DNA of 62,390 nucleotides, filler included, from Babesia bigemina (GCF_000981445.1; 7 parts of 7 records of this genome joined end to end with filler, not necessarily neighbours in it), one strand, 5' to 3'; shown: positions 7,763 through 62,390, numbered from the whole stretch's first letter. Notes: generated by a model from the sequence alone, not told the origin. Numbers and translations: made by a program.

Positions 7763-7767
7763 AGTTA

Positions 7768-8135: not shown

Positions 8136-8150
8136 AAGTGGTGATTATTA

Positions 8151-10524: not shown

Positions 10525-10544
10525 TAATAATCACCACTTTGGTC

Positions 10545-11131: not shown

Positions 11132-11136
11132 ACTAA

Positions 11137-11518: not shown

Positions 11519-11659
11519 TACTAAATCACCACATCAGTTAACTATTACACAATCACATACAACGATTAATGAGTGATGCAACAGATTAAAGCACAATTCA
11601 TAAGTTAGGTGAGTAGGTGATATGCTAGGTGAGTGTAGATAGTAAACACGTGAGTACGA

Positions 11660-17581: not shown

Positions 17582-17641
17582 GGCACAAGTTATTGCTATG
17601 GTTTATAGAAGTCATAGCGGTAATATGGCGAGGTAATTCGA
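17562..17641 (-). other. Conserved cassette leader (TCGAATTACCTCGCCATATTACCGCTATGAC...TTGTGCCTTGTCACCCTTC)
   Basis: Near-identical copies abut the 22-bp array at 20741, 42505, 51052 and 58269. Confidence 0.85.
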
Positions 17642-20740: not shown

Positions 20741-20766
20741 TCGAATTACTTCGTCTTATTAACGCT

Positions 20767-37500: not shown

Positions 37501-38586
37501 CCAAAAATCCCGGGGCAGGAATCAGAGCCCAGCGAGGTGTCCATAAAGGTTGGAAGCATCAGACTCAGTCTTGACAGATTGCTCGACCACCTCGAAAAAC
37601 CGAAATTATACGCCTACGATCACAAATTCGTCGACTTACTCAAAGATCTTAATGACCTCGTTACCGCTTTACACCCCTCATCTTTCGCCGACTCCCCCTC
37701 CCCCCTCCTCGCCCCCCTCAAGACCGGCCTCTCCGCCTTCACGCAGCAACTCGGCCACGCGTACGTGAACAGGTATAGTGGGAAACAATTCCGGGGTCAA
37801 TTGGTTGAAACTAAGCAAACTAACGTTATGAAAGATGGCAGAACAACCAATGAATCAAAAGAGGATTTAACCCCTGAGGGCCGGAACTGCGCCAAGGTCT
37901 GCCTGACGATAGTGGAGATGGTCTATGATGCTTTTGAAGAATTGAAAAAGAAATGCAGTAACGATTGGTACGGCAAACAAATTAATGCCATTAGTAGTTT
38001 AGGTGGTTATCTTAAGCGGAACGGCTATATTGTTTCGACTGGTTCCTCCAAGCAAGACGGGGAGTTGCGCAATACGGGTGACATGATGGGTCAGCATATT
38101 ATCAAAAATCTCATTGGCGCAATCACAGGCAGCGAAGGAAATGGGCATCTTCAAAAGTGTAAGGACGATGACAAAAACAACTCAGAAGAAAAAGTCACGC
38201 AAGTTGCATCGCCAGCACAGGTCAATGTCATGGCCATACTCAAATGCCTGTTCAGACACATCCGACAATATAATGAGGTCGGTCACTTCGTAATTCACTC
38301 TAAACCTAAAACGCCTTGCAGTATATACGAAATGTTGGTATGGTTCACAGGGCTTACGTATAACAGAGCCTATCAAGCGTTGCAAGATGACGGTTTCACA
38401 GGCCTACTTGTGAAGACTAAGAACCATGTAGTAGAGAGGGACGACGACTTTGAAGTCGAATACGTCGACAAGTCATCCTACTACATAGAAGCGTACCCAC
38501 AGAAAATCACGTACGAAGAAATTATGAAGTCGATCAATGACATGTGCACCAACTCCCATGAGCTGCTCACCACCATCCTCGGCACA
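34564..38586 (+). CDS. ves/VESA-related variant antigen gene D with intact N-terminus (MRHVPKKLTDCPENLRESIDWLIQV...), 3' end lost in gap
   Basis: ATG at 34564 in an AAAATG context, no interruption up to the gap, family motifs present. It is preceded by unique DNA rather than the 22-bp array. Confidence 0.88.
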
Positions 38587-44394: not shown

Positions 44395-44785
44395 GGAGCG
44401 ATGTGGAGTGGGTTAAGGGGCGATGTAGAGTGGAAAAAGGGGCGATGTAGAGTGGGTTAAGGGGCGATGTAGAGTGGGTTAAGGGGCGATGTAGAGTGGG
44501 TTAAGGGGCGATGTAGAGTGGGTTAAGGGGCGATGTGGAGTGGATTAGGGAGCGATGTAGAGTGGGTAAAGGGGCGATGTGGAGTGGGTAAGGGGCGATG
44601 TAGAGTGGATAAGGGAGCGATGTAGAGTGGGTTAAGGGGCGATGTAGAGTGGGTTAGGGAGCGATGTAGAGTGGGTTAGGGAGCGATGTAGAGTGGATAA
44701 AGGGGCGATGTAGAGTGGGTTAGGGAGCGATGTAGAGTGGGTTAGGGAGCGATGTAGAGTGGGTTAGGGAGCGATGTGGAGTGGA
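44395..44785 (-). repeat. 22-bp array
   Basis: G-rich on +; junction 15-mer at 44786-44800. Confidence 0.96.
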
Positions 44786-44800
44786 TAATAATCACCACTT

Positions 44801-45021
44801 GTAACCATGTCATCGCTGCAGTGAATATATGACCACTTGTGACCATGTCATCGTCGCCGTAACCATGTCATCGTCGCCGTAACCATGTCATCGCTGCCGT
44901 GACCATGTCATCGCTGCCGTGGCCATGTCATCGCTGCCTAACCATGTCATCGCTGCCTAACCATGTCATCGCTGCCGTGACCATGCCATCGCTGCCGTGA
45001 CCTTGTCATCGCTGCCGTAAC
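44801..45021 (-). repeat. 20-bp array (about 10 units, first ones degenerate)
   Basis: Read directly. Confidence 0.92.
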
Positions 45022-45027
45022 TGATAA

Positions 45028-45322
45028 CTTGGTCAGGTGCTTGGTCAGCACATTGGTCATAGCATTGGTCACCACTTTGGGCAACACGTTGGTCACCACT
45101 CTGGTCATGGCATTGGTCAGGTGCTTGGTCAGCACCTCGGTCAACACGTTGGTCAGCACTTAGGTCAACACGTTGGTCACCACCTTGGTCACCACATTGG
45201 TCACCACGTTGGTCAGCACCCTGGTTATGGCTTTGGTCAGCACGTTGGTCACCACTTTGGTCAACACATAGGTCAGCACTTTGGTCAGCACTTTGGTCAG
45301 GTGCTTGGTCATGGCATTGGTT
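45028..45322 (-). repeat. 12-bp array (about 24 units)
   Basis: Read directly. Confidence 0.93.
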
Positions 45323-45485
45323 AGGTGGTAGGTCAGCCACTAGATCAGCACATAACCCACGTGTTAACTACTACACAATCACATACAAAGATTAATGAGT
45401 GATACAACAGATTAAAGCACAATTCATAAGTTAGGTGAGTAGGTGATATGCTAGGTGAGTGTAGATAGTGAACACGTGAGTACGA

Positions 45486-48400
45486 TTATGGCTGCAGATA
45501 AAACACCCTGCCCAGTTTGTTAACACGTGCAGCGGCGAGTAGTGATTGAGCAGCAATGCGATGTGATGAGGGTGAGTGCAAGTGAGATTTGATGTGGAGC
45601 AGGTCGAGGCGGATGACCATGATGTGGAGCAGGTAGAGGAGGGAAAGGAGCCAGAGGGTTAATACAGTGATCGAGAAATTAAATCTGATAGCCCATAAGA
45701 AGTTGTCGATTTGCCCGCGTAGTGTGATGAGTACAGACTTCTCTCCTAGCATCAATTTTAACGCTTCGCAGAAATCTTTGCACGTTCGTTTGGTCATGTT
45801 GGTGTTACCTGCGCCACTAAGAGCCCAGGTATTTCCGAATGATAAACCGTATCTATACAGAGTTGGATTGGCGTCCCGGCAGTTGACAATCGATTTGCAT
45901 TTTCTATGGTGGTGCACGTTGAGTGATTTGCCTACTGTTGTGTCACGTGTGTAGTCCACTGAGCACTGCTCAACACAGCTTTTGTCATGGCATTTGGTAC
46001 CGGAAGAACCGCACTTCTTGCAGCAGTCGTCATACAATTTCTTTAGCAAATCGTAAAAGGTTTCTGTGATATAGACTATCCACGAGAGGTGATTTGCCTT
46101 ATGTTCGGAAGAATAAATGCTAAAGTTGTTCGACGTCAGTGGCTTAAGGTAGAGTCCACATGTTTTAACCGACTCCGATTTGCACGTTGATATGCTGCAC
46201 AGATTACCGTTCGTGTGGTTCTCGTGATCCATCTTACCAAACATAATACTAGGGTTAAACCCGTATTCGTGGCCGAAATATGCTTCCTTCACCGCATCAT
46301 TGAAAGATACTTGGGTACGGTTCTCGCCACCTTTGCGCTTATAAAACCCTCCCTCCCAGTTTGTAAAGTAACCATGGAAGAATGCGAAAATGTCACCCAG
46401 AGTCTGAGGAGGCTGTTGCAACAAACATACGAAGTAACCGCAAAGTTTAGTTAGACATGAATCTTTATTACCACAGAAACTGCTGAGAACATCCATGAGG
46501 TATGCGCCTCTCTGAGTATGCGATGCAGCGTTGCTAATGTCGGCAAAGCCCATCGGCGTTTTGCAAGGAATTCCTCTGTGATTCGAAACGGTGCATTCCC
46601 ATTTACAACCCGGTTTAGTGAACGAATGTGGTAGAAAACCGGGCAAACCGTCTTCTAAGAAAGATTGAAGCGGCGACTTTAGTCCGCAGTTGGGATGTTG
46701 GTCACCCTTTTGGTCGTGTATTTGGTCACGTGTTTGCTTACACTTTTGGTCACACGTTTGGTTGAGGCATTGCTTATCGTTGCACCTCCAATCCGACCCA
46801 CCTACGTACCTGCCGTAGTGGCAGTCGTACCAACCGCTCAGTTCAGTAGCGTTGCGACATTGTCTGAAGAGGAAATAGAGTTGCTCATAGAGCCTGTTCA
46901 ATACATCAACCAACATATCAAAGCACTGTGCGGGGGCAGCCGGGTACTGTAAATTGAAGGAGTTGTTCGAGAACTCGCACCCATATTTACCGCCAATGTG
47001 ACCGTTGCCAAGAATTGTGATAAGCAATGCGTACGATTCGGCGCATACATCACGAAGTGCGGTTGTCAAGTGGGCAGGTTGGATTGTAGTTGTGCCAGCT
47101 AGGCTCAGTCTCGAAAAATCAATATTTTTGTACGGCTCATTTTCAAGGTCTTCAGGTTTTTTAAACAATTCTTTAAAATACTGACACAGTGGCTCATAGA
47201 CTGCATTGAACTGTAAGCCGGAACACCACGCAAGCATTTCGTAAACGGAAGACGGCGTCCTCGGTTTCGCAATATGAGTGAAGTGACAAACATTAAAGTA
47301 TAGTACGAGGTGTCCGTGCAGCTTCTGTAAAAGACCGTCTTCCTCCTCATGTTCAACCACTATATGAACACCGCCAGACGACATGGCGGTCGGAGGAGTT
47401 TTAGTTGTGTTGATCAATTTCCCTTTAATGTTATTCATGAGACGATCGTGAATATGTACGCCACAGAAGTTTTCTTTGTTCTTTAATTCAGCGTCGCTGA
47501 TCTCAGCACTTGTCGGAACGTCGTAGCCTGCAGTTTTAAGGAAGTCGCCAAGACCATTATTATTATGTAAATTAATGCTAAGGTTATAATGATCCCCTGT
47601 GACGTTAGTGTTCGTCAGTAGCTCCTCGAATTCAGATAGGAGCATAGGGATAATGGTCAACGCTATTCTTGCGCAATTCATGGCTTCGTTGGTGGGATCG
47701 CCTTGCGCAGCTGGATGAGGAGGTGTCTTTTCCCAGACGATTGGATTATTGCCATCATATGCATTGATGTAGGCGTACTGTAACTCTCTACAAAAATATG
47801 TCATGCCATCCTTAATTATGTTGAGAAGAGTGGGATGATTTCCTTCGCCGAATGTATCGGCGCTTAACTGCTTTACAGCATTGATGAGTGACTGAGAATT
47901 CACTTCAAAGTTGTGATTGAATGTTTTAAGTTCAGCGAGTAACTTTACAACTTTACTTCTAATGGTATCAACCCTGGTTGCATAAGGGTCTTGGACCTGG
48001 GTTCCTGGATTCTGACGTAGAGTCTGTGCGCTTCTTGGTCTTATTTCTTCATCGACATATTCAAATACCCCTTCAAAAAAGTTTAATACTTTCGTACCTA
48101 AATCGTATAACTTCATGCCATTGCTAAGCTCAACTGGCGTCGAACCCTTCAAACGGTTGGTGATCCCATCCTTCAATATAGTCAAGAAACCCTTCACCCC
48201 GCTCCCCCTATCCTCCTCAATTACCCTTTCAATCTCCGCCAACTGCGTCGTGACAACGGTCTCCAGCGCGGTCAGCTCGGCCTGCTTCTGCTTCGCGAAG
48301 AGGGATTGGACTTGGGAGGTGAGGGCGGAGAAGGCGTTTTTAACAGCCGAAAGAGCGAATATTCGTAGGTTCTCAACTGCTGCTTTAGAAGCTTGTTTTG

Positions 48401-51026
48401 CGCCGGTTAATGCGTTACTAAGTTTGTCAATCGCAGATTGTAGATATCTGTTGGCAGATATGATACCCTGATCAATGTCACTTATCCGCCTTTGAATATT
48501 TCTGCAGCGATTATCCAATAAATTCAGCATTGCATCAGTTTCTTTTCGAGCGAATTCCACAGCTGCCGGTAGACTCTCCAACTCTGTTACTGTCGCAAGC
48601 GCTGTGTCAATGGCTTGTTGGATAATGCCCGTTTTTATGGTGGTGAACTCATCTTCAGTCATTCTCGTAAGTCTTTCATGAATATTAGTGACGCTTTTCC
48701 TGAGACCGTAATGCATTTTTTCGTTTTTCTTCAGCATGTCGTCTAGCTCAGTCAAAAGTATCAGGACACCTTTCTCTCCATCGTCCAAAAAGGATGCAGG
48801 ACGATTGACCAACGTGCTGAGCTTTTCGAGCTGATCTTCTATAGTTTTCAATTGTTTTCCTACTTCAGTTATATCTGCTGCGCCATTTTTGGTTGTGTCA
48901 GTTACGGCTTTCTCGCCATCGGCGGTAAAAGATGATAGTGTATCGCTAGTGATGGCTGCAATAGCTTCCTTGTACTCTCCGTGTGCACCCTTGACATTAT
49001 CACTTACACCGCGAGATGGAGAGCCGTAACCGGTCATATCAGCGGGTTTAAACTCTATTCTGCTGTCTCCTTCGTCAAAACCATCCTTATTCAAAGGTGC
49101 CTTGATTCCCTCAATCATGCCTCTTAGCATACCGTTGCGGTTACCAAATTTCATTGTTTGCACGTAATAATTGTTCATGAATTGCTCATCATATTTAATA
49201 GTGTTTTTCGGATTTTTAATGACACTTTGCAATTCATTTTCGATGTCCAGCTTGAGTTTGTTGACAAATTCGAGGCTTTCTACTTCGGGAAGTGGAAGTA
49301 TGGATGACAATTTAAGTTCACTATGAAGAGCCCTCAAAGCTTCAATTACATTCTTGGATCTGTCAGCTTGAGAAGAGGCGAAAAGTTTCTTGACCTCACC
49401 TGTCAAAGATGCATAAAGACCTGTACGAGCTAGATTATTATGACCCACCTCAAAAGCCTTCTGTGCGGCTTTTAGAATTGCAATTATTTGCGTGTCTATG
49501 TAACGATTGATCCCATCTCTAATCTTATTCCTCACATTCTCCAAATCTGTTTTCACATGCTCATCCAAAGCTGTGAGACTATTGTCCTTTCCATCCAAAG
49601 CTTCTTTCACCGCCGCAACAACCTCTATTTTAATCGTTTGCAGCCGTTCCCTGTACGCTTTTTCAATATGTTCGACAGCAGTCGTCACCTTTGCCACCAA
49701 AGCACCAACTCCCCGCCGCGCCGATTCATATGCTTTCAGAAGCCTCTCAGCTTTAGTTTTCAATGCAACTGCATTGGTCTTAATTAAAACATGTTTCCCA
49801 CTTTCTGTCTTTATGTCAACTCTCATTAGTATTTCTTTACATTTATTCATAGCATATTTCACTACGTCCGCCGCACTGGAATTCCACTTGGCCAAATCCG
49901 CAGCTTCTCTTCCAAGTTCCTTACCAACTGCCAACAACTTCGACCTGATTTCATTAATGTCTGTTCGAAGCTGCGGTTGGACGCTAGTAGAATCCACCAT
50001 CACCAACTTCTCTCTCACGTCATAGAATCTTCTATTGATTTGCTCCCTGTACGTTCCATTGAAATTCTCAGTTAATTCTTCAGCCAAGTCCAAGGCTTCA
50101 TCCATTGCATTCCTGACCTTGCCAAATTCATCATGTTTGGTCTGAGAAAGTTCATTGAAGGCTATCTCAATATCATGAAACTGACTTGTCAAATTACTAT
50201 CAAGCTTCTTGGTTTCATCATTAATGGCTTTATTCAGTATGCGTTTTTGCTCTGTCAACCCGCTGTCCACGGCCTTGGCTTCTTCCATAACATCCGGTCT
50301 GTTTGCTACATCTTGAAAAACATTCGCTGCCTGCGACACCAATTTCATGGCGCATTGAAGCTTACCTCGTAAGTGTTCATCAAGCTGTTTTACAGCGCCG
50401 TCTGCATTTGTGGCCGTTCGCAGACACCAAGCAGCTCTGGAAGATACAGCTTTTAACTGACTTTCGAGATTATATTTTTTATTATCTTCGATTTCACGTT
50501 TATAGCGCACAATATCAGTCTGTGATAGCGTTTTTAAAATAATGCTGACTCCCTCAGTTCTTGCCGTCATCCCCTCCTCATACCCCTGCAGCCCGCTCTT
50601 AACCTTCCCAACGGCCTTCGCAAATCCCGAAACGCCACGTCCCTTGCCTATCGAGGCTTTCAAATCATTAATAGTCTGTGTAATATTAGGATTGTAATGT
50701 TCTAACAAGCCTTTACTTCCTTCCAGGCAGCTAAGCAAAAACGCCATCACCCCGTCGCACAGCCTGTCAAGGTCAGAGTACACAATGCCCTGGCCGTCGT
50801 AGCCTTTGGAGTCAGAGTTGAAGCCGAGGAAAGTCTGAAGGCCGTCACAAAGGTTATTAAGGATGTTAGTAGGGTTGTTATTTGAGGTATTTTTAGGGTT
50901 CAAAATTTTGCCAAATTTCTTGTCAAGCTCCCTAGGCGGCACATGGTCAGGGCAGTGGCAGGAAGTGGAAGGAAGGAAGAGAAGGGTGACAAGGCACAAG
51001 TTATTAGAATGATTTATAGAGGTCAT
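45486..51026 (-). CDS. ves/VESA-related gene F; complete ORF from the cassette-leader ATG, but lacking the canonical ~160-aa N-terminal region
   Basis: An 1846-aa ORF, MTSINHSNNLCLVTLLFLPSTSCHCPDHVPPRELDKKF..., with all family motifs, TM segment and YLQP* end. Confidence 0.8.
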   Translation of the reverse strand: MTSINHSNNLCLVTLLFLPSTSCHCPDHVPPRELDKKFGKILNPKNTSNNNPTNILNNLCDGLQTFLGFNSDSKGYDGQGIVYSDLDRLCDGVMAFLLSCLEGSKGLLEHYNPNITQTINDLKASIGKGRGVSGFAKAVGKVKSGLQGYEEGMTARTEGVSIILKTLSQTDIVRYKREIEDNKKYNLESQLKAVSSRAAWCLRTATNADGAVKQLDEHLRGKLQCAMKLVSQAANVFQDVANRPDVMEEAKAVDSGLTEQKRILNKAINDETKKLDSNLTSQFHDIEIAFNELSQTKHDEFGKVRNAMDEALDLAEELTENFNGTYREQINRRFYDVREKLVMVDSTSVQPQLRTDINEIRSKLLAVGKELGREAADLAKWNSSAADVVKYAMNKCKEILMRVDIKTESGKHVLIKTNAVALKTKAERLLKAYESARRGVGALVAKVTTAVEHIEKAYRERLQTIKIEVVAAVKEALDGKDNSLTALDEHVKTDLENVRNKIRDGINRYIDTQIIAILKAAQKAFEVGHNNLARTGLYASLTGEVKKLFASSQADRSKNVIEALRALHSELKLSSILPLPEVESLEFVNKLKLDIENELQSVIKNPKNTIKYDEQFMNNYYVQTMKFGNRNGMLRGMIEGIKAPLNKDGFDEGDSRIEFKPADMTGYGSPSRGVSDNVKGAHGEYKEAIAAITSDTLSSFTADGEKAVTDTTKNGAADITEVGKQLKTIEDQLEKLSTLVNRPASFLDDGEKGVLILLTELDDMLKKNEKMHYGLRKSVTNIHERLTRMTEDEFTTIKTGIIQQAIDTALATVTELESLPAAVEFARKETDAMLNLLDNRCRNIQRRISDIDQGIISANRYLQSAIDKLSNALTGAKQASKAAVENLRIFALSAVKNAFSALTSQVQSLFAKQKQAELTALETVVTTQLAEIERVIEEDRGSGVKGFLTILKDGITNRLKGSTPVELSNGMKLYDLGTKVLNFFEGVFEYVDEEIRPRSAQTLRQNPGTQVQDPYATRVDTIRSKVVKLLAELKTFNHNFEVNSQSLINAVKQLSADTFGEGNHPTLLNIIKDGMTYFCRELQYAYINAYDGNNPIVWEKTPPHPAAQGDPTNEAMNCARIALTIIPMLLSEFEELLTNTNVTGDHYNLSINLHNNNGLGDFLKTAGYDVPTSAEISDAELKNKENFCGVHIHDRLMNNIKGKLINTTKTPPTAMSSGGVHIVVEHEEEDGLLQKLHGHLVLYFNVCHFTHIAKPRTPSSVYEMLAWCSGLQFNAVYEPLCQYFKELFKKPEDLENEPYKNIDFSRLSLAGTTTIQPAHLTTALRDVCAESYALLITILGNGHIGGKYGCEFSNNSFNLQYPAAPAQCFDMLVDVLNRLYEQLYFLFRQCRNATELSGWYDCHYGRYVGGSDWRCNDKQCLNQTCDQKCKQTRDQIHDQKGDQHPNCGLKSPLQSFLEDGLPGFLPHSFTKPGCKWECTVSNHRGIPCKTPMGFADISNAASHTQRGAYLMDVLSSFCGNKDSCLTKLCGYFVCLLQQPPQTLGDIFAFFHGYFTNWEGGFYKRKGGENRTQVSFNDAVKEAYFGHEYGFNPSIMFGKMDHENHTNGNLCSISTCKSESVKTCGLYLKPLTSNNFSIYSSEHKANHLSWIVYITETFYDLLKKLYDDCCKKCGSSGTKCHDKSCVEQCSVDYTRDTTVGKSLNVHHHRKCKSIVNCRDANPTLYRYGLSFGNTWALSGAGNTNMTKRTCKDFCEALKLMLGEKSVLITLRGQIDNFLWAIRFNFSITVLTLWLLSLLYLLHIMVIRLDLLHIKSHLHSPSSHRIAAQSLLAAARVNKLGRVFYLQP

Positions 51027-51052
51027 AGCGGTATTATGGCGAAGTGATTTGA

Positions 51053-52247
51053 AGGATGTAGAGTGGGTAAAGGGGCGATGTAGAGTGGATTAGGGAGCGA
51101 TGTGGAGTGGGTTAGGGAGCGATGTAGAGTGGATTAGGGAGCGATGTAGAGTGGATAAGGAGCGATGTAGAGTGGATAAAGGAGCGATGTAGAGTGGATA
51201 AAGGAGCGATGTAGAGTGGCTAAAGGGGCGATGTAGAGTGGGTTAGGGAGCGATGTAGAGTGGATAAGGGGCGATGTAGAGTGGGTAAAGGGGCGATGTA
51301 GAGTGGGTTAGGGAGCGATGTAGAGTGGATAAGGGGCGATGTAGAGTGGGTAAAGGGGCGATGTAGAGTGGATAAAGGGGCGATGTAGAGTGAGTTAGGG
51401 AGCGATGTGGAGTGGGTTAGGGAGCGATGTAGAGTGGGTAAAGGGGCGATGTGGAGTGGATAAGGGGCGATGTAGAGTGGGTTAGGGAGCGATGTAGAGT
51501 TGGTTAAGGAGCGATGTAAGGTGGATAAAGGGGCGGTGTAGAGTGGGTAAAGAGGCGATGTGGAGTGGGTTAAGGGGCGATGTGGAGTGGATAAAGGGGC
51601 GATGTGGAGTGGATAAAGGAGCGATGTGGAGTGGGTTAAGGGGCGATGTAGATTGGATAAAGGGGCGATGTAGAGTGGATAAAGGGAGCGATGTGGAGTG
51701 GATAAAGGGGCGATGTAGAGTGGGTAAGGGAGCGGTGTAGAGTGGGTAAGGGGCGATGTAGAGTGGGTTAAGGGGCGGTGTGGAGTGGGTTAGGGAGCGA
51801 TGTAGAGTGGGTTAGGGAGCGATGTAGAGTGGTTTAGGGAGCGATGTGGAGTTGATTCGAGGGATGTAGAGTGGGTTAGGGAGCGATGTAGAGTGGGTAA
51901 GGGAGCGATGTAGAGTGGGTAAAGGGGCGATGTAGAGTGGATAAAGGTGCGATGTAGAGTGGGTTAGGGAGCGATGTAGAGTGGGTAAAGGGGCGATGTA
52001 GAGTGGAAAAAGGGGCGATGTAGAGTGGAAAAAGGGGCGATGTAGAGTGGGTTAAGGGGCGATGTAGAGTGGGTTAAGGGGCGATGTAGAGTGGGTTAAG
52101 GGGCGATGTAGAGTGGGTTAAGGGGCGATGTGGAGTGGATTAGGGAGCGATGTAGAGTGGGTAAAGGGGCGATGTGGAGTGGGTAAGGGGCGATGTAGAG
52201 TGGGTTAGGGAGCGATGTAGAGTGGATAAGGGGCGATGTGGAGTGGG
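51053..52247 (-). repeat. Complete 22-bp array (about 54 units) between cassettes G and F
   Basis: Bounded by the leader (51052) and the junction 15-mer (52248-52262). Confidence 0.97.
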
Positions 52248-52264
52248 TAATAATCACCACTTTG

Positions 52265-52611
52265 GTCACCATGTCATCGCTGCCGTGTTGATGTCATCGC
52301 TGCCGTGTTGATGTCATCGCTGCCGTGTTGATGTCATCGCTGCCGTGTCCATCTCATCGCTGCCGTGTCCATGTCCTCGCTGCCGTGACCGTGTCATCGC
52401 TGCCGTGACCATGTCATCGCTGCCGTGACCATGTCATCGCTGCCGTAACCATGTCATCGCTGCCGTGACCATGTCATCGCTGCCGTGTCCATGTCATCGC
52501 TGCCGTGACCATGTCATCGCTGCCTCAACCATGTCATCGCTGCCGTGACCATGTCATCGCTGCCGTGACCAGTCATCGCTGCCGTAACCATGTCATCGCT
52601 GCCGTGACCAT
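52265..52611 (-). repeat. 20-bp array (about 17 units)
   Basis: Read directly. Confidence 0.95.
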
Positions 52612-52614
52612 CAA

Positions 52615-52760
52615 CTTGGTCAGCACGTTGGTCAACACGTTGGTCAACACTTTGGTCAGCACATTGGTCATGGCATTGGTCAACACGTTGGTCAGCACTT
52701 TGGTCAGCACATTGGTCAACACGTTGGTCAGCACTTTGGTCAGCATCTTGGTCACCACAT
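52615..52760 (-). repeat. 12-bp array (about 12 units)
   Basis: Read directly. Confidence 0.92.
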
Positions 52761-52883
52761 CAGTTAACTACTACACCATCACATACAACGATTAATGAGT
52801 GATTCAAAACATTAGAAAACAATTAGTTGTATAGGTGAGTAGGTGATGCTAGGTGAGTGTAGACAGTAAACACGTGAGTACGA

Positions 52884-55800
52884 TTATGGTTGCAGATAAA
52901 ACACTTTGCTGAGCTTGCCAACGCGTGCAGCGGCGAGCAGTGATTGAGCAGCGATGCGATGTGATGAGGGACTATGTAAATGCGATTTGATGTGGAGCAG
53001 GTCGAGGCGGATGACCATGATGTGGATGAGGTAGAGGAAGGAGAGGAGCCAGAGAGCGACGTTCATCCACAGGAACGGTGCGCGGATGGTGAATAGGAAG
53101 TTAGGGATTGTGACGTAGATTAGTTTAGCGAGAGGTGCGTCATGTGCTTCGACATCGCTTATTACTCTGCCCAATGCTGTGCAGAAGTCTTCACAAGTAC
53201 GCTTATACATTTTGTCTTTCTGACCGCTTAGAGCATGTGGACTACCAAATGTGAAACCTGAAGCATATATAAGCGCATGAGTACTGCGGCACTGTACGAT
53301 GGAATTGCACGTAGTTCTATGTTTGATATTACTTAAGGCGTCCGGTATCTCTCGGTCGACGGGTTTCTTATATTCATATTTGAATCTCACTTGACAATCT
53401 TTGTTACAGCCCTTGTCGTAGCATCGACGCCCCTTCTTGTTGCACTTGTTACAACAATCATCATACAGCTTTTTGAGTAGGTCATAGAAGGTTTCGGTGA
53501 TATACACAAACCATGATACATAGTCACCGGCGTGCTTCTTAGAGAAGACCATCGTGATGTCGTCACTGATGGATTGTAAGTATGGTCCGCACGGTAGGCC
53601 TGGATTTGTGCCATTATCACAAGACGTAAGGCTGAACATATCACCCTTAAGTTTAGGCAGTTTGCCGGGCGCATGACTGTCGTGCTTCTTGGTGTTCTGC
53701 AAATGTATGACGTCCAACGTTGTGTCCATATCTCCGAAGTTGGCGTCGCTGACGGCTGCCTCAAACGCATTCTTCTTATGTACCTGACCGGCTTTATCCC
53801 AGTTGTACAGGAATTGATGGTAAAACGCGAACATGTCACCCAGCGTCTGCGGAGTCCGGCGCATTAGGCAGTTGAGCATACCACACAGCTGACTGAGTGG
53901 CTTATTGGAATCGCCGCACAGCTCTTTGAGAATGTCTTTGAGATGAGAACCTTGCTGGGTATGCGACGCCATGCTTGAAATATCAGCGAATCCCATTGGC
54001 GTTTTGCACGGGATACCTCTATGTTTAGTGACAGTGCATTCTAGTTTACAACCTGGCTTTGTAAATTGGTGAGGGAGGAAACCTTGCAAGCCATCCTCGA
54101 GGAATGATTGCAAAGGCGATTTAAGGCCACAGGTAGGATGCCTATCACACTTTTGTTCAGCACCTTGGTCAGCCTTTTGGTTGGCCATTTGCTTGCATGG
54201 TTGATCACCGATTTGGTTAGGGCACTGCTTGGTATTGCAGCTCCACGCCGATCCACCAATTTCCTTGCCGTACCAGCAGTCTGCCCATCCGCTACTACCG
54301 GGGCCGTTGATGCACTGACCGTATACGAAGCGCAATTGGTGGAACAAACGATTCAAGATATCAGCTAGCATGTCCAAGCACGCCCCGTTGTCACTCGGGT
54401 AATGTAGCCCATAATGGTTGGTATTGTAGTCGCAAGCGTAGACACTGTTTTCGTGACCATGACCAAGGATAGCGGTGAGCACGGAGTGAGCGTGGGTGCA
54501 GACAGCGGAAAGATCATCTGCCATTTCCGAAGCCTTGACAGGTTTGGGGTATGCGTCCAAACAGTTCTCGTCACCGACTTGAACGGGTAGACTGATTCCA
54601 TCACTTCCATCCGTGATTTCCAGCGTAATCACACCCGTATCACTCTCCTTGGTTTTGTCCTTTGGTTTCTCAAACAGGTCATCAAACCCGTTGAGGTGGA
54701 AATCTTGGTAGCGAGGGGAGTAAGGAAAGCCGGCCAGCCATACCAGCATCTTGTGCACGGATGACGGTTGCGTTTTGGCGGAGGTAGTGCCAAGATGACA
54801 AGCACGATAATATTGATGGAGATGTTTCATGAGACATTCAAGTACGTCAGATAGGTTAAATGCGTTTTTAGTTGTTTTCTTCGTTAACTCTTCCTTCTCA
54901 TCACCCTCGTAACACCTTTTGAGATGGCCGTTGCTGTTTGCGCCATTAATCGGTACATTGAGCAAATCATCAAAAATCTTTTGACCGGTCTTGTTCTTAT
55001 CTAGGTCGCCGTTTTGCTTTTGGGGATCATCGGTGAGGCGGTAGTCACATTGCTGGAGGAAGGCACCAAGTCCATTGACAACTTGTTCCGGCTTTACTCC
55101 CGATTTGTACGCAACACCGTTTCTGTTGACCGTCTTCAGATTGATTTTATAGTAAGCCCATCCACCGCCTTCTTTACACCTTTTCGTCAACTCGCTCAAG
55201 TCATGTTCCAATATTTCAAATACGGTAAATAACACTTTCGCGCAAGCTTTTCCTTCATCCGTCACCTTTTGTGATTTTGCGTTATATAATAATATATCTT
55301 CGTGCCCGTCATACTTGTTCACGTATGCCTTTCCTAGTTCCCATGAGAAATCAGTAAGACCCGCACGTAAGGCATCAAGTAGTTCTGGGTGACGAGGATT
55401 GTTGTTTTGAGTATGGGTCAGATGAGACAAGGAAGCGTGAAGATTAGTGAGTTTTGTTTTGAAAGTATAGTCGAAGGTGTAAGTTCTAGGTGCCTTAACT
55501 TCTGTCTTTAGATAAACAAGCATATCGTCCACCGCGCTTTTAATGTCGTCGACCTGCTTGGACTGATCGTTGGGCTTATTTGCACCTATAAGCTGATACG
55601 TTATAAACATTAATATATTATCCAAATATATTTGCAATTTATCGAAAAGAGAACTCATATGCTGCACGGTATGCTGATTTTCAGGTGGCAAGTTCTCTTT
55701 AATTTCCTCCAAAGTACTTTGCGCATTGCCTTTCAACCTATTCATTAATTCTTTTAACCCTGTCTTCATGTCTGATTGAATAATTTTATCGATAACATTT

Positions 55801-58243
55801 TTCTGCTCAAGAGCCAATTTTTTAAGAGCATCTAGACCTGCAATTTTGGAGGTAGCAAACGATAGCCTAACCTGTTTGGTGACATCGTTGAAGCCGTCAC
55901 GTGTATTTTGAGTCAACTTTGTCTGCAGTTCTAATATGGCTTGTGTGATGTGCTCGTAGGCTTTATCCAACGCTTGCTTAAGGAGGTTTATCGTGTGCGT
56001 TACAGCGTCATTAGCTTGATAGGCGGCTTGGCTTATTGCTTTCAGTTTTTTTTGCATTGCTTCTTTCAACTCATCCAATTTAGCTGCTGCCGTGTCCTTT
56101 TGCTTATTTATTTCGCCGTCTTCCTTGTTCAATTCGTCTTTCTCTTTCTTAAGATTATGAAGTGATTCAATGTCACCTTTGATATATTCAATCGTACTAT
56201 CGATTTCACCGCTCGATTTTGTTAACAATTTGTCAAGCTCTGTGATTTTGTCATCGACAGTTGCCAACGCCGATCCGATCTTTTCTCCGCGGCTCTGCTT
56301 ACTGTTGTCAAACTCCTTGCCAATAAGTTCGACTTTATTTATAGCTTCACTGACGTGTTTGCCGAGATTGTATTCATGATTGTCATCGTCACTTAACATC
56401 TGAGCATCAATGCCCGTGAACGACGTAAGTTCGTCGCTAACGTGTTCCGCCTTGGATTGCAGAGCAGTTAGAATAGCAAGTAGCGCATCAGGGAGATGTG
56501 ATTTGTATGCGGAGGGATTTTTGGATAGGGCTCCTTCCGAAATCAGTCTCCTCTCAATTTCCTTCACTAAGGGATCGGCAAATTTCTCGAATACGCCACC
56601 TGTTAATTTCATCTTCTGCCCAAGCGGCGCGACAAATGTTTCTATAACACTTTTGACAGCGGAGATATTTGCAGAGATGTAATCGGCCTCTGATTGTTCT
56701 TGCTTCGTGTCTTTAAACGCTTCAACGGCGACTTCAATGACATCGCGCTTAATTGCATTAGTTATAGCAGCAGCGATGATTTTCGTAAGTTTTGTATACT
56801 TTTCACCTTGACTCGGGTTGTCGTTGTAGTTCTTGTCTAAATAATTCTGAATCCAGCCCATAACGACTTCATTCCCATTCAATATGTCATCAATCCACTT
56901 CTCAACTTTCTTACCAAACTTTGTTGCGTCGCTAAACGTTCCCGCATACGCCCCTACATTAGTGACCATTTCGCCCAGATGACCATTTTTCGTGCGATTT
57001 TCATCTACATCATACAGCTCCTTAACGCGTTGTTTTATGTTCTTCATGAGTTGGCCCCAATTTCCGTTTATAGTTTCTTCGCTACCGTCTCCCAGTTTTC
57101 CCGCTTGTTCCTTTATACCCGTAAAGTTGTCCCTTGCCTGATTGACTAAATGGTGAAGCACCAATCTGTTTGTCGATATATTTTTATGGAGCGACTTCAC
57201 TGAATCTTTTATATCTTCAAACCTGGCTAGAATTTTGTTTTTATATTTGTTATCGAAGTCTCTACCGTTGTAACCAAGCAACTCTCGAGAAGCAATTTTC
57301 AAAGCATTGTCTAGATGCTTAAACACATCGTTTCTGGCATTTTCTAAAGTTAAAATGTTTTCTCTCACTTTCCACAACTCATCTTCTGATGTTATTTTAA
57401 GCGCCTTGTATTGTTTTTCAATTGCCGTTAATATTGCTTGCTCCTTCTCTACCAGTGCCTCATCTAACATCTTGGCCTGCATCGCGATGACATCATTTCC
57501 TGCCGATTTTTTCAGAACTTCAATCGCACCATCCATTTTTCCAATTGCTCCATCCATCTTGTTTTTTAATGCTTCATCGAGCCCGTTGTAACCATCATTA
57601 TTGTTTTTGATCGTCGACATGTGATGAGTAATCTGCTTCACTATATCATTGAATGTTTTGTGAATGGCTTCGCAACCACTGGATTGAGCATTATTTATGT
57701 CGGTGGTTTTGTCGTTTATTTTTTCTATTATTAACTCATTTATGTTTTTAATTACATTATTAGTTTTCTCACTCAATTCACCGTCATACCCCTCCAACCA
57801 CTCCCTCACCTCCGCGACAGCATCCGCAAGCCCAGTACGCCCGGAGCCAATTTTATTATTTAGAGTGTTAAGTACATTTTCAAGTCTCATAGCAAGATGT
57901 TGATCGTACGTTTTAACCGCATCATCATCTTTCACCGCACCAAGCACACCACTCAAAAATCCCATCACCCCGTCACACAGCCTATCCAGGTCTGAGTACA
58001 CAATCCCAGAGCCATCGTAGCCTTTGGAAGCAGAGTTGAAGCCGAGGAATTTTTCGAGGCCAGTGCAGAGGTTATTAAGGAGGTTAGTAGGGTTGTTATT
58101 TGAGGTATTTTTAAGGTTTAAAATTTTGTCAAATTTCTTGTCAAGCTCCCTAGGCGGCACATGGTCAGGGCAGTGGCAAGAGGTGGAAGAGGGAAGGGAA
58201 GGGTGACAAAGCACAAGTTATTGTGATGGTTAATAGAGGTCAT
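52884..58243 (-). pseudogene. ves/VESA-related gene G; leader ATG (58243) put out of frame by a 1-nt shorter pyrimidine tract; body intact
   Basis: A 1776-codon open frame (52884..58214, GTG start) with all family motifs. The leader ATG is 29 nt upstream, so it is out of frame. Confidence 0.78.
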
Positions 58244-58269
58244 AGCGGTAATATGGCGAGGTAATTCGA

Positions 58270-60976
58270 GGGATGTAGAGTGGATAAAGGGGCGATGTAG
58301 AGTGGATAAAGGGGCGATGTAGAGTGGATAAAGGGGCGATGTAGAGTGGGTAAAGGAGCGATGTAGAGTGGATAAAGGGGCGATGAAGGGTGGATATAGG
58401 GGCGATGTAGAGTGGGTAAAGGGGCGATGTAGAGTGGGTAAAGGGGCGATGTAGAGGAGGTTAGGGAGCGATGTAAGGTGGATAAAGGGGCGATGTAGAG
58501 TGGATAAAGGAGCGATGTAGAGTGGATAAGGGGCGATGTAGAGTGGGTTAGGGGGCGATGTAGAGTGGGTAAAGGGGCGATGTAGAGTGGGTTAAGGGGC
58601 GATGTCGAGTGGGTTAAGGAGCGATGTAGAGTGGGTAAGGGAGCGATGTAGAGTGGGTTAGGGAGCGATGTAGAGTGGGTTAAGGGGCGATTTGGAGTGG
58701 ATAAAGGGGCGATGTAGAGTGGGTTAGGGAGCGATGTAGAGTGGGTTAGGGAGCGATGTAGAGTGGATAAAGGAGCGATGTAGAGTGGATAAAGGAGCGA
58801 TGTAAGGTGGGTTAGGGAGCGATGTAGAGTGGGTTAAGAGGCGATGTGGAGTGGGTTAGGGAGCGATGTAGAGTGGGTTTAGGGGCGATGTGGAGTGGGT
58901 TAGGGAGCGATGTAGAGTGGGTAGAGGAGCGATGTGGAGTGGATAAAGGAGCGATGTAGAGTGGATAAAGGAGCGATGTAGAGTGGATAAAGGGGCGATG
59001 TAGAGTGGATAAGGAGCGATGTAGAGTGGGTAAAGGAGCGATGTAGAGTGGGTTAAAGAGCGATGTAAGGTGGGTTAGGGAGCGATGTAGAGTGGGTTAA
59101 GGGGCGATGTAGAGTGGGTTAAGGGGCGATGTAGAGTGGGTAAAGGAGCGATGTGGAGTGGGTTAAGGGGCGATGTAGAGTGGGTTAGGGAGCGATGAAG
59201 AGTGGGTAAAGGAGCGATGTGGAGTGGATTAGGGAGCGATGTAGAGTGGGTTAAGGGGCGATGTAGAGGAGATTAGGGAGCGATGTAGAGTGGGTTAGGG
59301 AGCGATGTGGAGTGGATAAAGGGGCGATGTAGAGTGGGTTAGGGAGCGATGTAGAGTGGATAAAGGGGCGATGTAGAGTGGATAAAGGAGCGATGTAGAG
59401 TGGATTAGGGAGCGATGCAGAGTGGATGAAGGGGCGATGTAGATTGGGTTAAGGGGCGATGTAGAGTGGATAAAGGGGCGATGTAGAGTGGACAAGGAGC
59501 GATGTAGAGTGGGTTAGGGAGCGATGTAGAGTGGATAAAGGAGCGATGTAGAGTGGGATAGGGAGCGATGTGGAGTGGGTTAAGGAGCGATGTAGAGTGG
59601 AAAAGGAGCGATGTGGAGTGGGTAAGGGAGGGATTTAGAGTGGATAAGGGAGCGATGTAGAGTGGATAAAGGGGCGATGTAGAGTGGCTAAGGGGCGATG
59701 AAGAGTGGGTTAGGGAGCGATGTAAAGTGAGTTAAGGGGCGATGTAGAGTGGATAAGGGGCGATGGAGAGTGGGTAAAGGAGCGATGAAGAGTGGATAAA
59801 GGAGCGATGTAGAGTGGGTTAAGGGGCGATGTAGAGTGGATAAGGGGCGATGTAGAGTGGGTTAGGCAGCGATGTAGAGTGGATAAGGGGCGATGTGGAG
59901 TGAGTTAAGGGGCGATGTAGAGTGGATAGAGGAGCGATGTAGAGTGGATAGAGGAGCGATGTAGAGTGGGTTAGGGAGCGATGTGGAGTGGATAAAGGGG
60001 CGATGTAGAGTGGATAAAGGAGCGATGTAGAGTGGATTAGGGAGCGATGCAGAGTGGATGAAGGGGCGATGTAAGGTGGATAAAGGAGCGATGTGGAGTG
60101 GATAAAGGGGCGATGTAGGGTGGATAAAGGGGCGATGTGGAGTGGGTAAAGGGGCGATGTAGAGTGGGTTAGGGAGCGATGTAGAGTGGATGAAGGGGCG
60201 ATGTGGAGTGGATAAAGGGGCGATGTAGAGTGGATAAAGGGGCGATGTAGAGTGGATAGAGGAGCGATGTAGAGTGGATAAAGGGGCGATGTGGAGTGGG
60301 TTAGGGAGCGATGTAGAGTGGATTACGGGCGATGTAGAGTGGATTACGGGCGATGTAGAGTGGGTTAAGGCGCGATGTAGAGTGGGTTAAGGGGCGATGT
60401 AGAGTGGGTAAAGGGGCGATGTAGAGTGGGTTAGGGAGCGATGTAGAGTGGGTTAGCGAGCGATGTGGAGTGGATAAGGGGCGATGTAGAGTGGGTAAAG
60501 GGGCGATGTAGAGTGGATAAGGGGCGATGTAGAGTGGGTTAAGGGGCGATGTAGAGTGGTTAAAGGGGCGATGTAGAGTGGTTAAAGGGGCGATGTAGAG
60601 TGGGTAAAGGAGCGATGTAGAGTGGGTTAGGGAGCGATGTAGAGTGGATAAGGAGCGATGTAGAGTGGGTTAAGGGGCGATGTAGAGTGGGTTAAGGGGC
60701 GATGTATAGTGGATAAAGGGGCGATGTGGAGTGGTCAAAGGGGCGATGTAGAGTGGGTTAAGGGGCGATGTAGAGTGGGTAAAGGGGCGATGAGGAGTGA
60801 GTAAAGGGGCGATGTAGAGTGGATAAGGAGCGATGTAGAGTGGGTAAAGGAGCGATGTAGAGTGGATAAAGGGGCGATGTAGAGTGGGTTAGGCAGCGAT
60901 GTAGAGTGGGTTAAGGAGCGATGTGGAGTGGATAAAGGGGCGATGTGGAGTGGGTTAGGGAGCGATGTGGAGTGGA
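58270..60976 (-). repeat. Complete 22-bp array (about 120 units) between cassettes H and G
   Basis: Bounded by the leader (58269) and the junction 15-mer (60977-60991). Confidence 0.97.
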
Positions 60977-61005
60977 TAATAATCACCACTTAAGTCAGGT
61001 GCTTG

Positions 61006-61111
61006 GTCACCATGTCATCGCTGCCGTGTCCATGTCATCGCTGCCGTGACCATGTCATCGCTGCCGTGACCATGTCATCGCTGCCGTAACAATGTCATCG
61101 CTGCCGTGACC
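61006..61111 (-). repeat. 20-bp array (about 5 units)
   Basis: Read directly. Confidence 0.93.
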
Positions 61112-61116
61112 TTAAC

Positions 61117-61562
61117 TTGGTCAGGTGCTTGGTTACCACGTTGGTCAGCACTCTGGTCATGGCATTGGTCATGGCATTGGTCAGCACTTTGGTCAGCACC
61201 TTGGTCAGCACTTTGGTCAACACTTTGGTCACCACCTTGGTCACCACCTTGGTCACCACCTTGGTCAGCACGTTGGTCAACACTTTGGGCAGCATCTTGG
61301 TCAACACGTTGGTCAACACTTTGGTCATGGCATTGGTCAGCACTTTGGTCAGCACTTTGGTCATGGCATTGGTCAGCACTTTGGTCATGGCTTTGGTCAG
61401 CACATAGGTCAGCACTTTGGTCAGCACATTGGTCAGCACATAGGTCATCACCTTGGTCAACACGTTGGTCAGCGCATTGGTCATGGTATTGGTCAGCACT
61501 TTGGTCAGCACGTTGGTCAGCACGTTGGTCAACACTTTGGGCAGCATCTTGGTCAGCACTTT
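61117..61562 (-). repeat. 12-bp array (about 37 units)
   Basis: Read directly. Confidence 0.94.
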
Positions 61563-61684
61563 AGTTAACTATTACACAATCACATACAACGGTTAATGAG
61601 TGATTCAAAACATTAGACAACAATTAGTTGTATAGGTGAGTAGGTGATGCTAGGTGAGTGTAGGCAGTAAACACGTGAGTACGA

Positions 61685-62390
61685 TTATGGTTGCAGATAA
61701 AACACCCTGTTAAGCTTGTTAACACGTGCAGCGGCGAGTAGTGACTGAGCAGCTATACGATGTGATGATGGACTATGTAGATGCGATTTGATGTGGAGCA
61801 GGTCGAGGCGGATGACCATGATGTGGGTCAGGTAGAGGAAGGAGAGGAGCCAGAGGGCGACGGTGGTCCAGAAGAATTTTTCTCTAATTTTCCAAAGGAA
61901 GTTCGGAATGGTGATATATGTCAAATCGCCAAGAACATTACCCTTTTTCAAAACCTTATTTAATGCGTTGCAGAAGTCTTGGCACGTTCGTTTTGTTTCC
62001 GGGCCATATGTTCCGCTGAGGTTTGATTCGCTCTGAAATACAAATCCGTATTTGCATAATGTCGGACGTGTGAATGGGCACTGAGCAATTGACCTACAGT
62101 TTTTAGAATGAGTGGAGGTATGGGAAACTAAACAGTTCTGGTGACACGTCTTAACATGACACCGTGATCCTGGGGTTTTGCAGTTTTTGCAACACTCTTC
62201 GTACAGCTTCTTGAGTAAATCGTAAAATGCTTCCGTGAGATAGACAATCCAAGTGAGATATTTGTCGGCATTGACTTTCGAAGAAAACTGTCCATATATT
62301 GTGGCCAAATGGCTGCTAATACCGGCGGATTTCCATTTCAGTTTTGGTACGGTAACCCGCGGTAATAAACTATTCAGCTCACCGTTAAGG
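61685..62390 (-). CDS. 3' end of ves/VESA-related gene H (continues beyond window; possibly frameshifted near 62281)
   Basis: Cys-rich domain, TM segment and RVNKLNRVFYLQP* end, as in the paralogues. Confidence 0.8.
   Translation of the reverse strand, partial: LNGELNSLLPRVTVPKLKWKSAGISSHLATIYGQFSSKVNADKYLTWIVYLTEAFYDLLKKLYEECCKNCKTPGSRCHVKTCHQNCLVSHTSTHSKNCRSIAQCPFTRPTLCKYGFVFQSESNLSGTYGPETKRTCQDFCNALNKVLKKGNVLGDLTYITIPNFLWKIREKFFWTTVALWLLSFLYLTHIMVIRLDLLHIKSHLHSPSSHRIAAQSLLAAARVNKLNRVFYLQP

What the first reader, a model, noticed from the sequence alone, without database searches (positions are those of the whole stretch)
44395..62390. Repeat-delimited cassette archive of variant-antigen genes (candidate VSG-like gene-conversion system in a piroplasm)
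Seen: a fixed, strand-polarised module order recurs. In gene sense it is 22-bp array > ~65-nt leader > antigen ORF > conserved 3' tail > 12-bp array > 20-bp array > AAGTGGTGATTATTA > next 22-bp array. Cassettes H (3' part), G and F are contiguous with no gap. The same grammar appears, as far as each contig extends, on four other contigs (A, B, C, E). Array lengths vary widely while order, orientation and junctions do not. Intergenic DNA is almost entirely repeat, with no obvious unique promoter. Known: Babesia bovis ves1 varies by segmental gene conversion into an active locus, and Trypanosoma brucei silent VSG cassettes are bounded by upstream 70-bp repeats and a conserved 3' motif. Inference: these are silent donor cassettes whose repeats serve as recombination anchors and/or silencing elements. 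I do not know of this three-array grammar being described in Babesia, but I could not search.
Basis: partly seen in the sequence, partly recalled or inferred. Interest (0 to 1): 0.92.

Follow-up and report, generated by a model that had tools for sequence, protein, structure and literature searches.

The report
Start-less antigen gene archive in Babesia
In this cattle-parasite (Babesia bigemina-type) DNA, surface-antigen genes that lack the family's normal start lie head to tail between three fixed kinds of short repeat, and they likely form a mostly silent chromosome-end library from which a few complete genes copy new antigen sequence.

Summary
The repeat grammar is real. H, F and G are contiguous head-to-tail BbigVes1b-type genes, each followed by 12-bp, 20-bp, junction and 22-bp arrays; 91% of the intergenic DNA is array. 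All six array-headed copies in the window lack the family's conserved start, and the 'leader' ATG is open into the ORF in only 1 of 5, yet the 5.3-6 kb bodies stay open. Among annotated B. bigemina relatives, 30 of 43 on chromosome-size contigs but 1 of 75 on small contigs have the start. That one begins MRHVPKK, exactly like gene D in this window; both share rare sequence blocks with start-less copies. In published blood-stage RNA-seq, chromosome-end copies are absent or at 1-2 CPM, against 98-310 CPM for an intact interstitial gene. Best reading: a near-silent subtelomeric donor archive that recombines at conserved coding blocks. The arrays cannot be the 5' anchor into D, which has none upstream, so the VSG analogy holds only in part. 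No conversion event was observed, and the MRHVPKK gene is absent from that RNA table. Ten literature searches found no description of the arrays.

The parts
44398..44784 (+). 22-bp minisatellite, G-rich on +, cut by the contig start
   Evidence: 4 G3N1-12 motifs and 6 TTAGGG on +
44786..44800 (-). 15-nt junction between the 20-bp and 22-bp arrays
44801..45021 (-). 20-bp minisatellite after G
45041..45345 (-). 12-bp minisatellite after G; resembles the gene's internal QxxD-coding repeat
45363..45485 (-). conserved 3' UTR of G
45486..51026 (-). cassette G: ves1b-type ORF without the family start; the only window copy open from the leader ATG (1846 aa); one C-terminal hydrophobic segment
50736..50849 (-). 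conserved 5' coding block (LC.GL..FLGF...YSDLDRLCDGVM), candidate recombination anchor; 93.9% identical to D over 114 nt
50986..51054 (-). leader of G, partly like ves coding sequence near residues 223-240 of full-length P0129
51055..52250 (+). 22-bp minisatellite upstream of G (about 55 copies)
52248..52262 (-). 15-nt junction
52268..52611 (-). 20-bp minisatellite after F
52616..52760 (-). 12-bp minisatellite after F
52763..52883 (-). conserved 3' UTR of F
52884..58217 (-). cassette F: open ves1b-type frame of 1777 codons, no family start, leader ATG out of frame
58203..58268 (-). leader of F
58272..60979 (+). 22-bp minisatellite upstream of F (about 124 copies)
60977..60991 (-). 15-nt junction
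61009..61111 (-). 20-bp minisatellite after H
61129..61562 (-). 12-bp minisatellite after H
61564..61684 (-). conserved 3' UTR of H
61685..62390 (-). 3' end of cassette H, cut by the window end
1..10185 (+). cassette A with arrays: 22-bp array fused to coding sequence at about residue 55 of the full-length protein, no leader, second type of 3' end, 24-bp variant array
10290..18395 (-). cassette B with arrays: body begins at about residue 15-17 of the full-length protein, leader ATG out of frame
18499..24372 (+). 22-bp array, leader and 5' part of cassette C; leader out of frame, stop in the head
34564..38586 (+). gene D: ves1b-type gene with the family start (MRHVPKKLTDCPENLRE) and array-free upstream DNA; candidate acceptor locus; 3' end cut by the contig end
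38687..43127 (-). cassette E (5' part, two stops in the head) with leader and 22/20/12-bp arrays; body 99.4% identical over 1150 aa to a named B. bigemina protein that has a different head

Best explanation
These are head-to-tail copies of the Babesia bigemina ves1b surface-antigen gene that lack the family's start and sit in a fixed three-minisatellite spacer, and they most likely form a near-silent chromosome-end archive whose sequence is copied by gene conversion into a few complete, start-bearing genes such as gene D. Shown here: the grammar; loss of the start at several different positions; open bodies; block sharing between the archive and D/P0129. Taken from published tables: tandem arrays of ves-sized genes at the ends of chromosomes 2, 3 and 4 pointing inward, and very low RNA counts for them. 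Inferred: that the window's contigs are subtelomeric; that exchange initiates at the conserved 5' coding block(s) and at the conserved 3' coding end plus UTR; that sequence flows archive to acceptor; that the arrays serve archive upkeep (unequal exchange, telomere-like silencing, G-quadruplex fragility) and not pairing with the acceptor. Intact interstitial ves1b genes appear to be a second, separate compartment expressed in place.
For: 6 of 6 array-headed copies lack the family start; the leader ATG is open in 1 of 5; all 4 complete bodies are open for 1777-1996 codons. The same leader joins the body at about residues 15, 27, 128 and 223-254 of P0129. Family start in 30 of 43 named B. bigemina hits on contigs >500 kb versus 1 of 75 on smaller ones, Fisher p=1e-16; B. 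ovata 21 of 33 versus 1 of 49. That one (P0129) starts like D and carries an archive-type 3' end. Rare exact 12-mers shared with 85 start-less proteins cover 424 of 1341 residues of D (32%) and 396 of 2007 of P0129 (20%), against a median of 5.1% and maximum of 12.0% for 30 intact chromosomal genes and a median of 21.6% for start-less ones; D's blocks come from 23 different start-less proteins. E shows the same body with a different head in another genome. Chromosome-end tandem genes point inward with gaps of 1.2-4.6 kb, like the window's 1.9 and 3.4 kb. In blood-stage RNA-seq, 2 of 22 searched chromosome-end genes are in the table, at 0.8-2.0 CPM, while intact BBBOND_0304560 has 98-310 CPM and BBBOND_0303650 is high in one calf of three (PMC9806345 DataSheet_1).
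Against: P0129's gene (CDR71764) is absent from that RNA table, so it is not shown to be expressed; the best-expressed verified ves1b there is an interstitial intact gene that draws little from the archive. Peptides were assigned to at least 27 chromosome-end genes, the top one (BBBOND_0300010 = P0157, leader type) above the published dominant VESA1B; this fits mosaic products but also expression in place. Block sharing has no direction: D and P0129 could be parents or ordinary members of the pool. That D and P0129 are the same locus could not be shown (searches found no relative of the upstream ORF). Starts of database proteins are gene-model calls, and small contigs may carry more errors. 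Only the best 120 of 335 and 120 of 203 hits were listed. In B. ovata the intact and start-less sets are less separate. The RNA and protein data come from parasites mapped to another isolate's genome, which loses divergent and multi-mapping reads.
Confidence: 0.48

Rival explanations
1. Passive subtelomeric amplification: 5'-truncated ves1b copies were captured next to telomere-like satellites and multiply and shuffle by unequal exchange between arrays and conserved blocks, with no regular role as donors; antigenic variation runs on the intact interstitial genes alone.
For: Intact interstitial genes share little with the archive (median 5.1%) and are the ones well expressed. The two arrays flanking G share a 194-nt exact tract against a unit-shuffle maximum of 87 (could also be an assembly effect at the contig start). 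P0129 is not in the RNA table.
Against: Four of four complete bodies are open over 5.3-6 kb while heads are broken in 4 of 5, which points to selection on the body; archive-type peptides are detected; start-bearing D is a patchwork of archive blocks.
Confidence: 0.22
2. Expression in place: cassettes are switched on one at a time from a promoter in or beside the 22-bp array, using the leader ATG when it is in frame (as in G), an internal ATG, or splicing at the pyrimidine-rich leader, giving N-terminally shortened antigens.
For: G is open from the leader ATG; 18 of 87 non-canonical B. bigemina models start at a leader-type ATG; peptides map to many chromosome-end genes; several give low blood-specific reads.
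Against: Leader length is not held in frame (1 of 5 open), A has no leader, the entry point varies over about 240 residues, and RNA counts are about 100-fold below an intact gene.
Confidence: 0.15
3. One reading: an unseen telomeric expression site carries a long 22-bp array, and whole cassettes are copied into it with the array as 5' homology and the 3' tail as 3' homology.
For: Fixed polarity and junctions; homogenised 3' ends, 73 of 87 start-less models ending in four related motifs; G-rich strand inferred to run toward the telomere; an exact tract shared between neighbouring arrays.
Against: A cassette copied from array to tail would still lack the family start, and mostly a usable ATG; the start-bearing candidate D has no such array; no array-bearing site with unique promoter DNA was seen.
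Confidence: 0.12

Closest known systems
BbigVes1b family of Babesia bigemina (Jackson et al. 2014, PMC4066756)
   Same: Same proteins: strong hits to genes named BbigVes1b in that paper's Table S1, single C-terminal hydrophobic segment, very low orthology between strains, mosaicism.
   Different: The parts read (Results parts 1-3 of 4, Discussion, Methods part 2, supplements 2 and 3) describe no flanking minisatellites, no start-less subtelomeric class and no special MRHVPKK locus; the Discussion says flanking motifs 'may exist'. Chromosome-end copies are labelled hypothetical in Table S1.
Babesia bovis ves1 LAT and segmental gene conversion (PMC2034396, PMC6630957, PMC9047050)
   Same: Conversion from silent donors into an active ves locus; truncated copies proposed as functional pseudogenes; blocks of gene-derived repeats downstream of LAT genes; predicted G-quadruplex enrichment near ves loci.
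   Different: B. bovis has dozens of head-to-head potential LATs, 75% away from telomeres and centromeres. Here the copies are head to tail, start-less as a class, intron-free in their bodies and embedded in three satellites.
Trypanosoma brucei VSG archive with 70-bp repeats (PMC4858185)
   Same: Large silent archive, upstream repeat of variable length, conserved 3' end.
   Different: The 70-bp repeat is in both archive and expression site and is shown to supply homology; here the candidate acceptor lacks the upstream array, and there are three repeat types.
Pneumocystis msg-I with UCS and CRJE (PMC5676039)
   Same: Subtelomeric tandem genes lacking promoter and protein start, which a dedicated site supplies; mosaic genes; a conserved coding block at the gene head.
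   Different: One UCS and one 33-bp junction there; here several truncation points and conserved blocks, probably more than one start-bearing locus, and a parallel set of intact self-expressing genes.

Membership tests
BbigVes1b | Homology to named BbigVes1b proteins, including the conserved C-terminal domain | tested here: met
   F's C-terminal 678 aa hit BBBOND_0300080, 0300560, 0303510, 0303650 and 0304670 at E<=2e-176, named BbigVes1b in Table S1; the five window C-termini fall among B. bigemina sequences in a 173-sequence tree (32 rows lacking the C-terminal motif dropped)
BbigVes1b | Single C-terminal transmembrane segment and short tail | tested here: met
   One hydrophobic peak above 1.9 about 60 residues from the end in A, B, F, G; H peaks at 1.86
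BbigVes1b | Conserved N-terminal start (M..KKLTDCPENLRE.IDWL) of intact members | tested here: not met
   Absent from A, B, C, E, F, G; present only in D. The cassettes are therefore filed as 5'-truncated copies of the family, not as intact members
VESA1 (Pfam) | Match to a Pfam VESA1 model | tested here: not met
   No VESA family among hits at E<=0.01 for 9 proteins, D included; naming rests on the hits above
B. bovis-type LAT | Head-to-head ves1 pair with a short bidirectional promoter | tested here: not met
   H, F, G are head to tail; no ves-length frame faces D
VSG-type repeat-anchored archive | Same upstream repeat in donors and in the expression site | tested here: inconclusive
   Donor-side arrays in 6 of 6; none in 4.36 kb upstream of D; the true expression site is not established
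VSG-type repeat-anchored archive | Archive copies are silent | tested here: inconclusive
   Near-silent in published RNA-seq but peptides assigned in a published proteome; no RNA run for this genome
VSG-type repeat-anchored archive | Observed conversion from archive to expressed locus, with repeat as boundary | not testable with these tools
   Needs clonal time-course transcripts; only static block sharing was measured
Pneumocystis UCS/CRJE type | Archive genes lack promoter and protein start | tested here: met
   (promoter absence inferred from 91% array content)
Pneumocystis UCS/CRJE type | A single-copy site supplies the start | tested here: inconclusive
   One MRHVPKK gene in the window and one among 118 named hits, but P0122 and P0123 are further near-full-length pool members and 30 intact genes have their own start
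Pneumocystis UCS/CRJE type | One fixed junction element at the head of every gene | tested here: not met
   Entry points at about residues 15, 27, 55, 128 and 223-254

The most novel reading that the evidence does not exclude
B. bigemina, and probably B. ovata, run a cassette system not described in apicomplexans: about 85 or more start-less ves1b cassettes stored at chromosome ends in a telomere-polarised three-satellite grammar feed one dedicated acceptor locus, marked by the MRHVPKK start and seen here as gene D, in parallel with an independent set of intact genes switched in place; the 12-bp array is an expanded piece of the antigen's own coding repeat and the 22-bp array is a transcribed, G-quadruplex-forming control element.
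Probability: 0.3. Interest if true: 0.87.

Novelty: new variant of a known kind. Interest (0 to 1): 0.7.

Why it matters
How B. bigemina varies its red-cell surface antigen has not been worked out, and its ves1b genes have been treated as one class. Splitting them into intact interstitial genes and a start-less chromosome-end archive, with a named candidate acceptor and named candidate anchors, makes the question directly testable by long-read cDNA and one 5'-specific PCR. It would also mean that much of the repertoire sits on unplaced contigs annotated as hypothetical or Ebh-like proteins and was left out of earlier counts. As a by-product, the widely used SpeI-AvaI diagnostic PCR appears to target the conserved 5' block of this family, which would explain its sensitivity and its cross-reaction with B. 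ovata.

Tried and rejected
No whole genome is held for this window, so no genome-wide repeat map. No RNA holder was listed for 50200-58300; this blank says nothing on expression. In one search run X5 (RNA by guess) covers only the bin with leader and 22-bp array (1 of 30 bins), with no tail cover, whereas DNA runs X1-X3 cover both; contig depth cannot rank parts and it is one run, so this is kept as a lead only. The 22-bp/junction/20-bp join could not be checked in public runs. Pfam gave only sub-threshold coiled-coil matches. The ORF upstream of D (30382-31311) has no relative in two searches, so D could not be tied to P0129's contig. The C-terminal tree does not separate start-less from intact genes and is partly ill supported, so a separate archive clade is rejected. 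The 22-bp motif is not in JGI metagenome contigs. The small ORF at 43227-43691 has no convincing look-alike (best 0.82). Retro-copy origin (constant 3' end, variable 5' truncation) was considered; no poly(A) tract lies between tail and 12-bp array, so it is set aside. A protein-coding role for the 12-bp array was not supported: open frames there follow from its make-up. The scan's earlier notes held nothing relevant. Supplement searches of PMC9806345 found no row for CDR71764, BBBOND_0303890, 0312140 or 0300010. The proteome table holds no unplaced-contig genes at all, so P0129 was not testable there.
Full report
Observation. The window is a string of contigs joined by spacers, and 44395-62390 is one of them. 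It holds three minus-strand genes, H (3' part), F and G, and between them the same run of elements: about 120 nt of conserved 3' UTR, a 12-bp array, a 20-bp array, a 15-nt junction, a 22-bp array and a 65-nt leader. Copy numbers vary from 5 to 124 while order and junctions do not; the junction occurs 6 times against 0.07 expected. Arrays are 5809 of 6392 non-coding bases. Contigs of three DNA runs from three studies hold tail, leader and 22-bp array, one spanning leader into array. The same grammar is on contigs A, B, C and E, with exceptions: A has no leader and a 24-bp variant array, and on E the 12-bp array follows a small unrelated ORF.

What the genes are. F's C-terminal 678 residues find 335 relatives; the best 120 listed are, apart from two of the window's own, B. 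bigemina and B. ovata proteins at 42-55% identity, annotated hypothetical or Ebh-like. Several are named BbigVes1b in Table S1 of Jackson et al. 2014. The window's C-termini sit among B. bigemina sequences in a tree, and E is 99.4% identical over 1150 residues to a B. bigemina protein. A, B, F and G have one hydrophobic segment near the C-terminus. Pfam does not recognise them.

Intact members begin M..KKLTDCPENLRE.IDWL. None of A, B, C, E, F, G does. The leader has an ATG, but it is open into the body only in G; it is out of frame in B, C and F and followed by stops in C and E. Yet the four complete bodies are open for 1777-1996 codons. Across window and database copies the same leader meets the body at about residues 15, 27, 128 or 223-254 of a full-length protein, and A's array meets it at about residue 55. 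Among the 118 named B. bigemina proteins listed (best 120 of 335 and best 120 of 203), the start is present in 30 of 43 on contigs over 500 kb and 1 of 75 on smaller ones; B. ovata gives 21 of 33 and 1 of 49. These starts are gene-model calls; I saw the DNA only in the window.

Where they lie. Table S1 of Jackson et al. gives coordinates: runs of ves-sized genes at the left ends of chromosomes 2, 3 and 4 all forward, and at the right ends of 2 and 3 all reverse, with neighbour gaps of 1.2-4.6 kb; the window's gaps are 1.9 and 3.4 kb. Eleven such chromosome-end genes are among my hits and all lack the start; two begin with the leader peptide. I infer that the window's contigs are subtelomeric and that the G-rich strand of the 22-bp array runs toward the telomere, the polarity of the TTTAGGG telomere repeat reported for B. 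caballi and B. bovis (PMC10463595, passages); strand polarity of telomeres is general knowledge. The three arrays hold 6, 15 and 25 TTAGGG and 4, 5 and 10 G3N1-12 motifs on that strand, none on the other, against 0-1 in the ORFs. I could not read the reference's intergenic DNA, so arrays there are inferred.

A candidate acceptor. Gene D (ATG 34564) has the full start and 4.36 kb of upstream DNA without 22- or 20-bp arrays. The single small-contig protein with a full start, P0129 (CDR71764), begins with the same MRHVPKK, seen in no other listed B. bigemina hit, and ends in an archive-type C-terminus. Rare exact 12-residue words shared with the 85 start-less proteins cover 32% of D and 20% of P0129; 30 intact chromosomal genes score a median of 5.1% (maximum 12.0%) and start-less ones 21.6%; the window's own cassettes score 11-28%, E 98%. 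D's blocks come from 23 different start-less proteins. D and P0129 differ in their bodies (29% over the one central stretch aligned). So they belong to the archive's recombining pool, which the other intact genes do not. Direction is not shown, and I could not prove that D and P0129 are one locus. P0122 and P0123 are further near-full-length pool members.

Expression. In blood-stage RNA-seq from three calves (PMC9806345, DataSheet_1, 3,721 genes kept), of 22 chromosome-end genes known from the proteome table and covered by my search terms, 2 are listed, at 0.8-2.0 CPM; BBBOND_0400010 has 0.5-2.5 CPM. Intact BBBOND_0304560 has 98-310 CPM and BBBOND_0303650 has 82 CPM in one calf and under 2 in the others (I read parts 117-118 of 118 only). 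This fits a near-silent archive beside intact genes switched in place. Against my acceptor reading, CDR71764 is not in the table. The reads were mapped to a reference genome in which divergent bodies would not map, so neither result is decisive. In the proteome, peptides were assigned to at least 27 chromosome-end genes, with summed abundance 3.7 million against 1.7 million for the 18 rows named BbigVes1b; the top one is a leader-type model, BBBOND_0300010. Archive-type sequence therefore reaches protein, by mosaic or in place.

Mechanism. I propose that start-less cassettes are stored at chromosome ends and exchange segments at conserved coding blocks: the 5' block ending YSDLDRLCDGVM (93.9% over 114 nt between D and G) and the last 300 nt of coding plus UTR (84-91% among B, F, G, H). 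A few start-bearing loci take up such segments and give the protein. The arrays cannot pair with D's upstream DNA, so they more likely keep the archive: length change and unequal exchange (a 194-nt exact tract is shared by the arrays flanking G), silencing, or breakage at G-quadruplexes as proposed for B. bovis (PMC9047050, passages). The 12-bp array resembles the gene's internal repeat coding QxxD: with H's array as probe the best 90-nt window falls on that repeat in B, E, F and G and beats all 100 codon shuffles in 3 of these 4; A's variant array best matches A's variant repeat but not beyond the shuffles, and B's and F's own arrays did not pick their own repeat. Gene-derived repeat blocks downstream of B. 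bovis LAT genes are mentioned in PMC2034396.

Comparison and novelty. It works most like Pneumocystis msg-I (archive without start) and B. bovis segmental conversion, less like the VSG 70-bp system. It is not a LAT and has no single junction element. Ten searches of the paper library turned up no description of these arrays or of a start-less class in B. bigemina; subscription papers are mostly missing, figures are not held (Fig. 3 of Jackson et al. shows gene models), and that paper's ves lists on an FTP site and the second supplement store were not available. Papers seen: PMC4066756 (abstract, Results parts 1-3 of 4, Discussion, Methods part 2, supplement 2 text, searches in supplement 3); PMC5660447, PMC6630957, PMC9047050, PMC12025327, PMC10975891 (passages); PMC10463595 (passages, section 14); PMC2034396 (passages, section 11 part 1); PMC5676039 (abstract, Introduction); PMC4858185 (abstract); PMC9806345 (passages, section 14 part 1, supplement searches and two parts).

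Verdict. Observation confirmed; interpretation partly supported and refined. New variant of a known kind, interest 0.7; best explanation 0.48.

Noticed in passing
window:57825-57994 and 35138-35307: The published SpeI-AvaI nested primers for B. bigemina (PMC12025327 Table 1) match facing sites exactly 170 bp apart, the published product size, in F and D (2-5 mismatches each); BiIB and BiIBN match all 7 ves1b 5' blocks in the window, BiIA none within 6 mismatches. The classic diagnostic target appears to be this gene family.
   Followed up: partly
window:24473-30105: A whole contig of GC-rich (about 66%) tandem units of roughly 0.7-0.85 kb with internal deletions and a 167-bp duplication; no long ORF.
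   Followed up: no
window:43227-43691 (-) and 43680-44294: Small Cys-rich ORF with a C-terminal hydrophobic stretch, headed by a 76-bp tandem array and followed by the 12/20/22-bp arrays in place of a ves tail; no Pfam or convincing Atlas match.
   Followed up: partly
window:33800-33861: Degenerate 12-bp-array-like tract about 700 bp upstream of D, 74-80% like the cassette arrays (E 4e-4), in the orientation expected for a leftward partner unit.
   Followed up: no
window:30206-31314: Frames upstream of D with an AT-hook-like RPRGRPRK stretch and a 310-codon Cys/basic-ended frame; no relative found.
   Followed up: partly
window:50945-51120: Public run X5 (insect metagenome, RNA by guess) holds much 22-bp array and a leader-array contig but no tail or ORF; a weak lead that the array is transcribed.
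   Followed up: partly
window:44398-44784 and 51055-52250: The arrays on either side of G share a 194-nt exact run of unit variants, beyond 50 unit shuffles (maximum 87); recent exchange or an assembly effect.
   Followed up: partly
window:52830-52883 and equivalents: The conserved 3' UTR carries three GTGAGT motifs on the antisense strand; role unknown.
   Followed up: no
B. ovata hits: B. ovata shows the same split of start-bearing and start-less copies, with its own homogenised 3' end (42 of 60 start-less models end alike) and different head sequences.
   Followed up: partly
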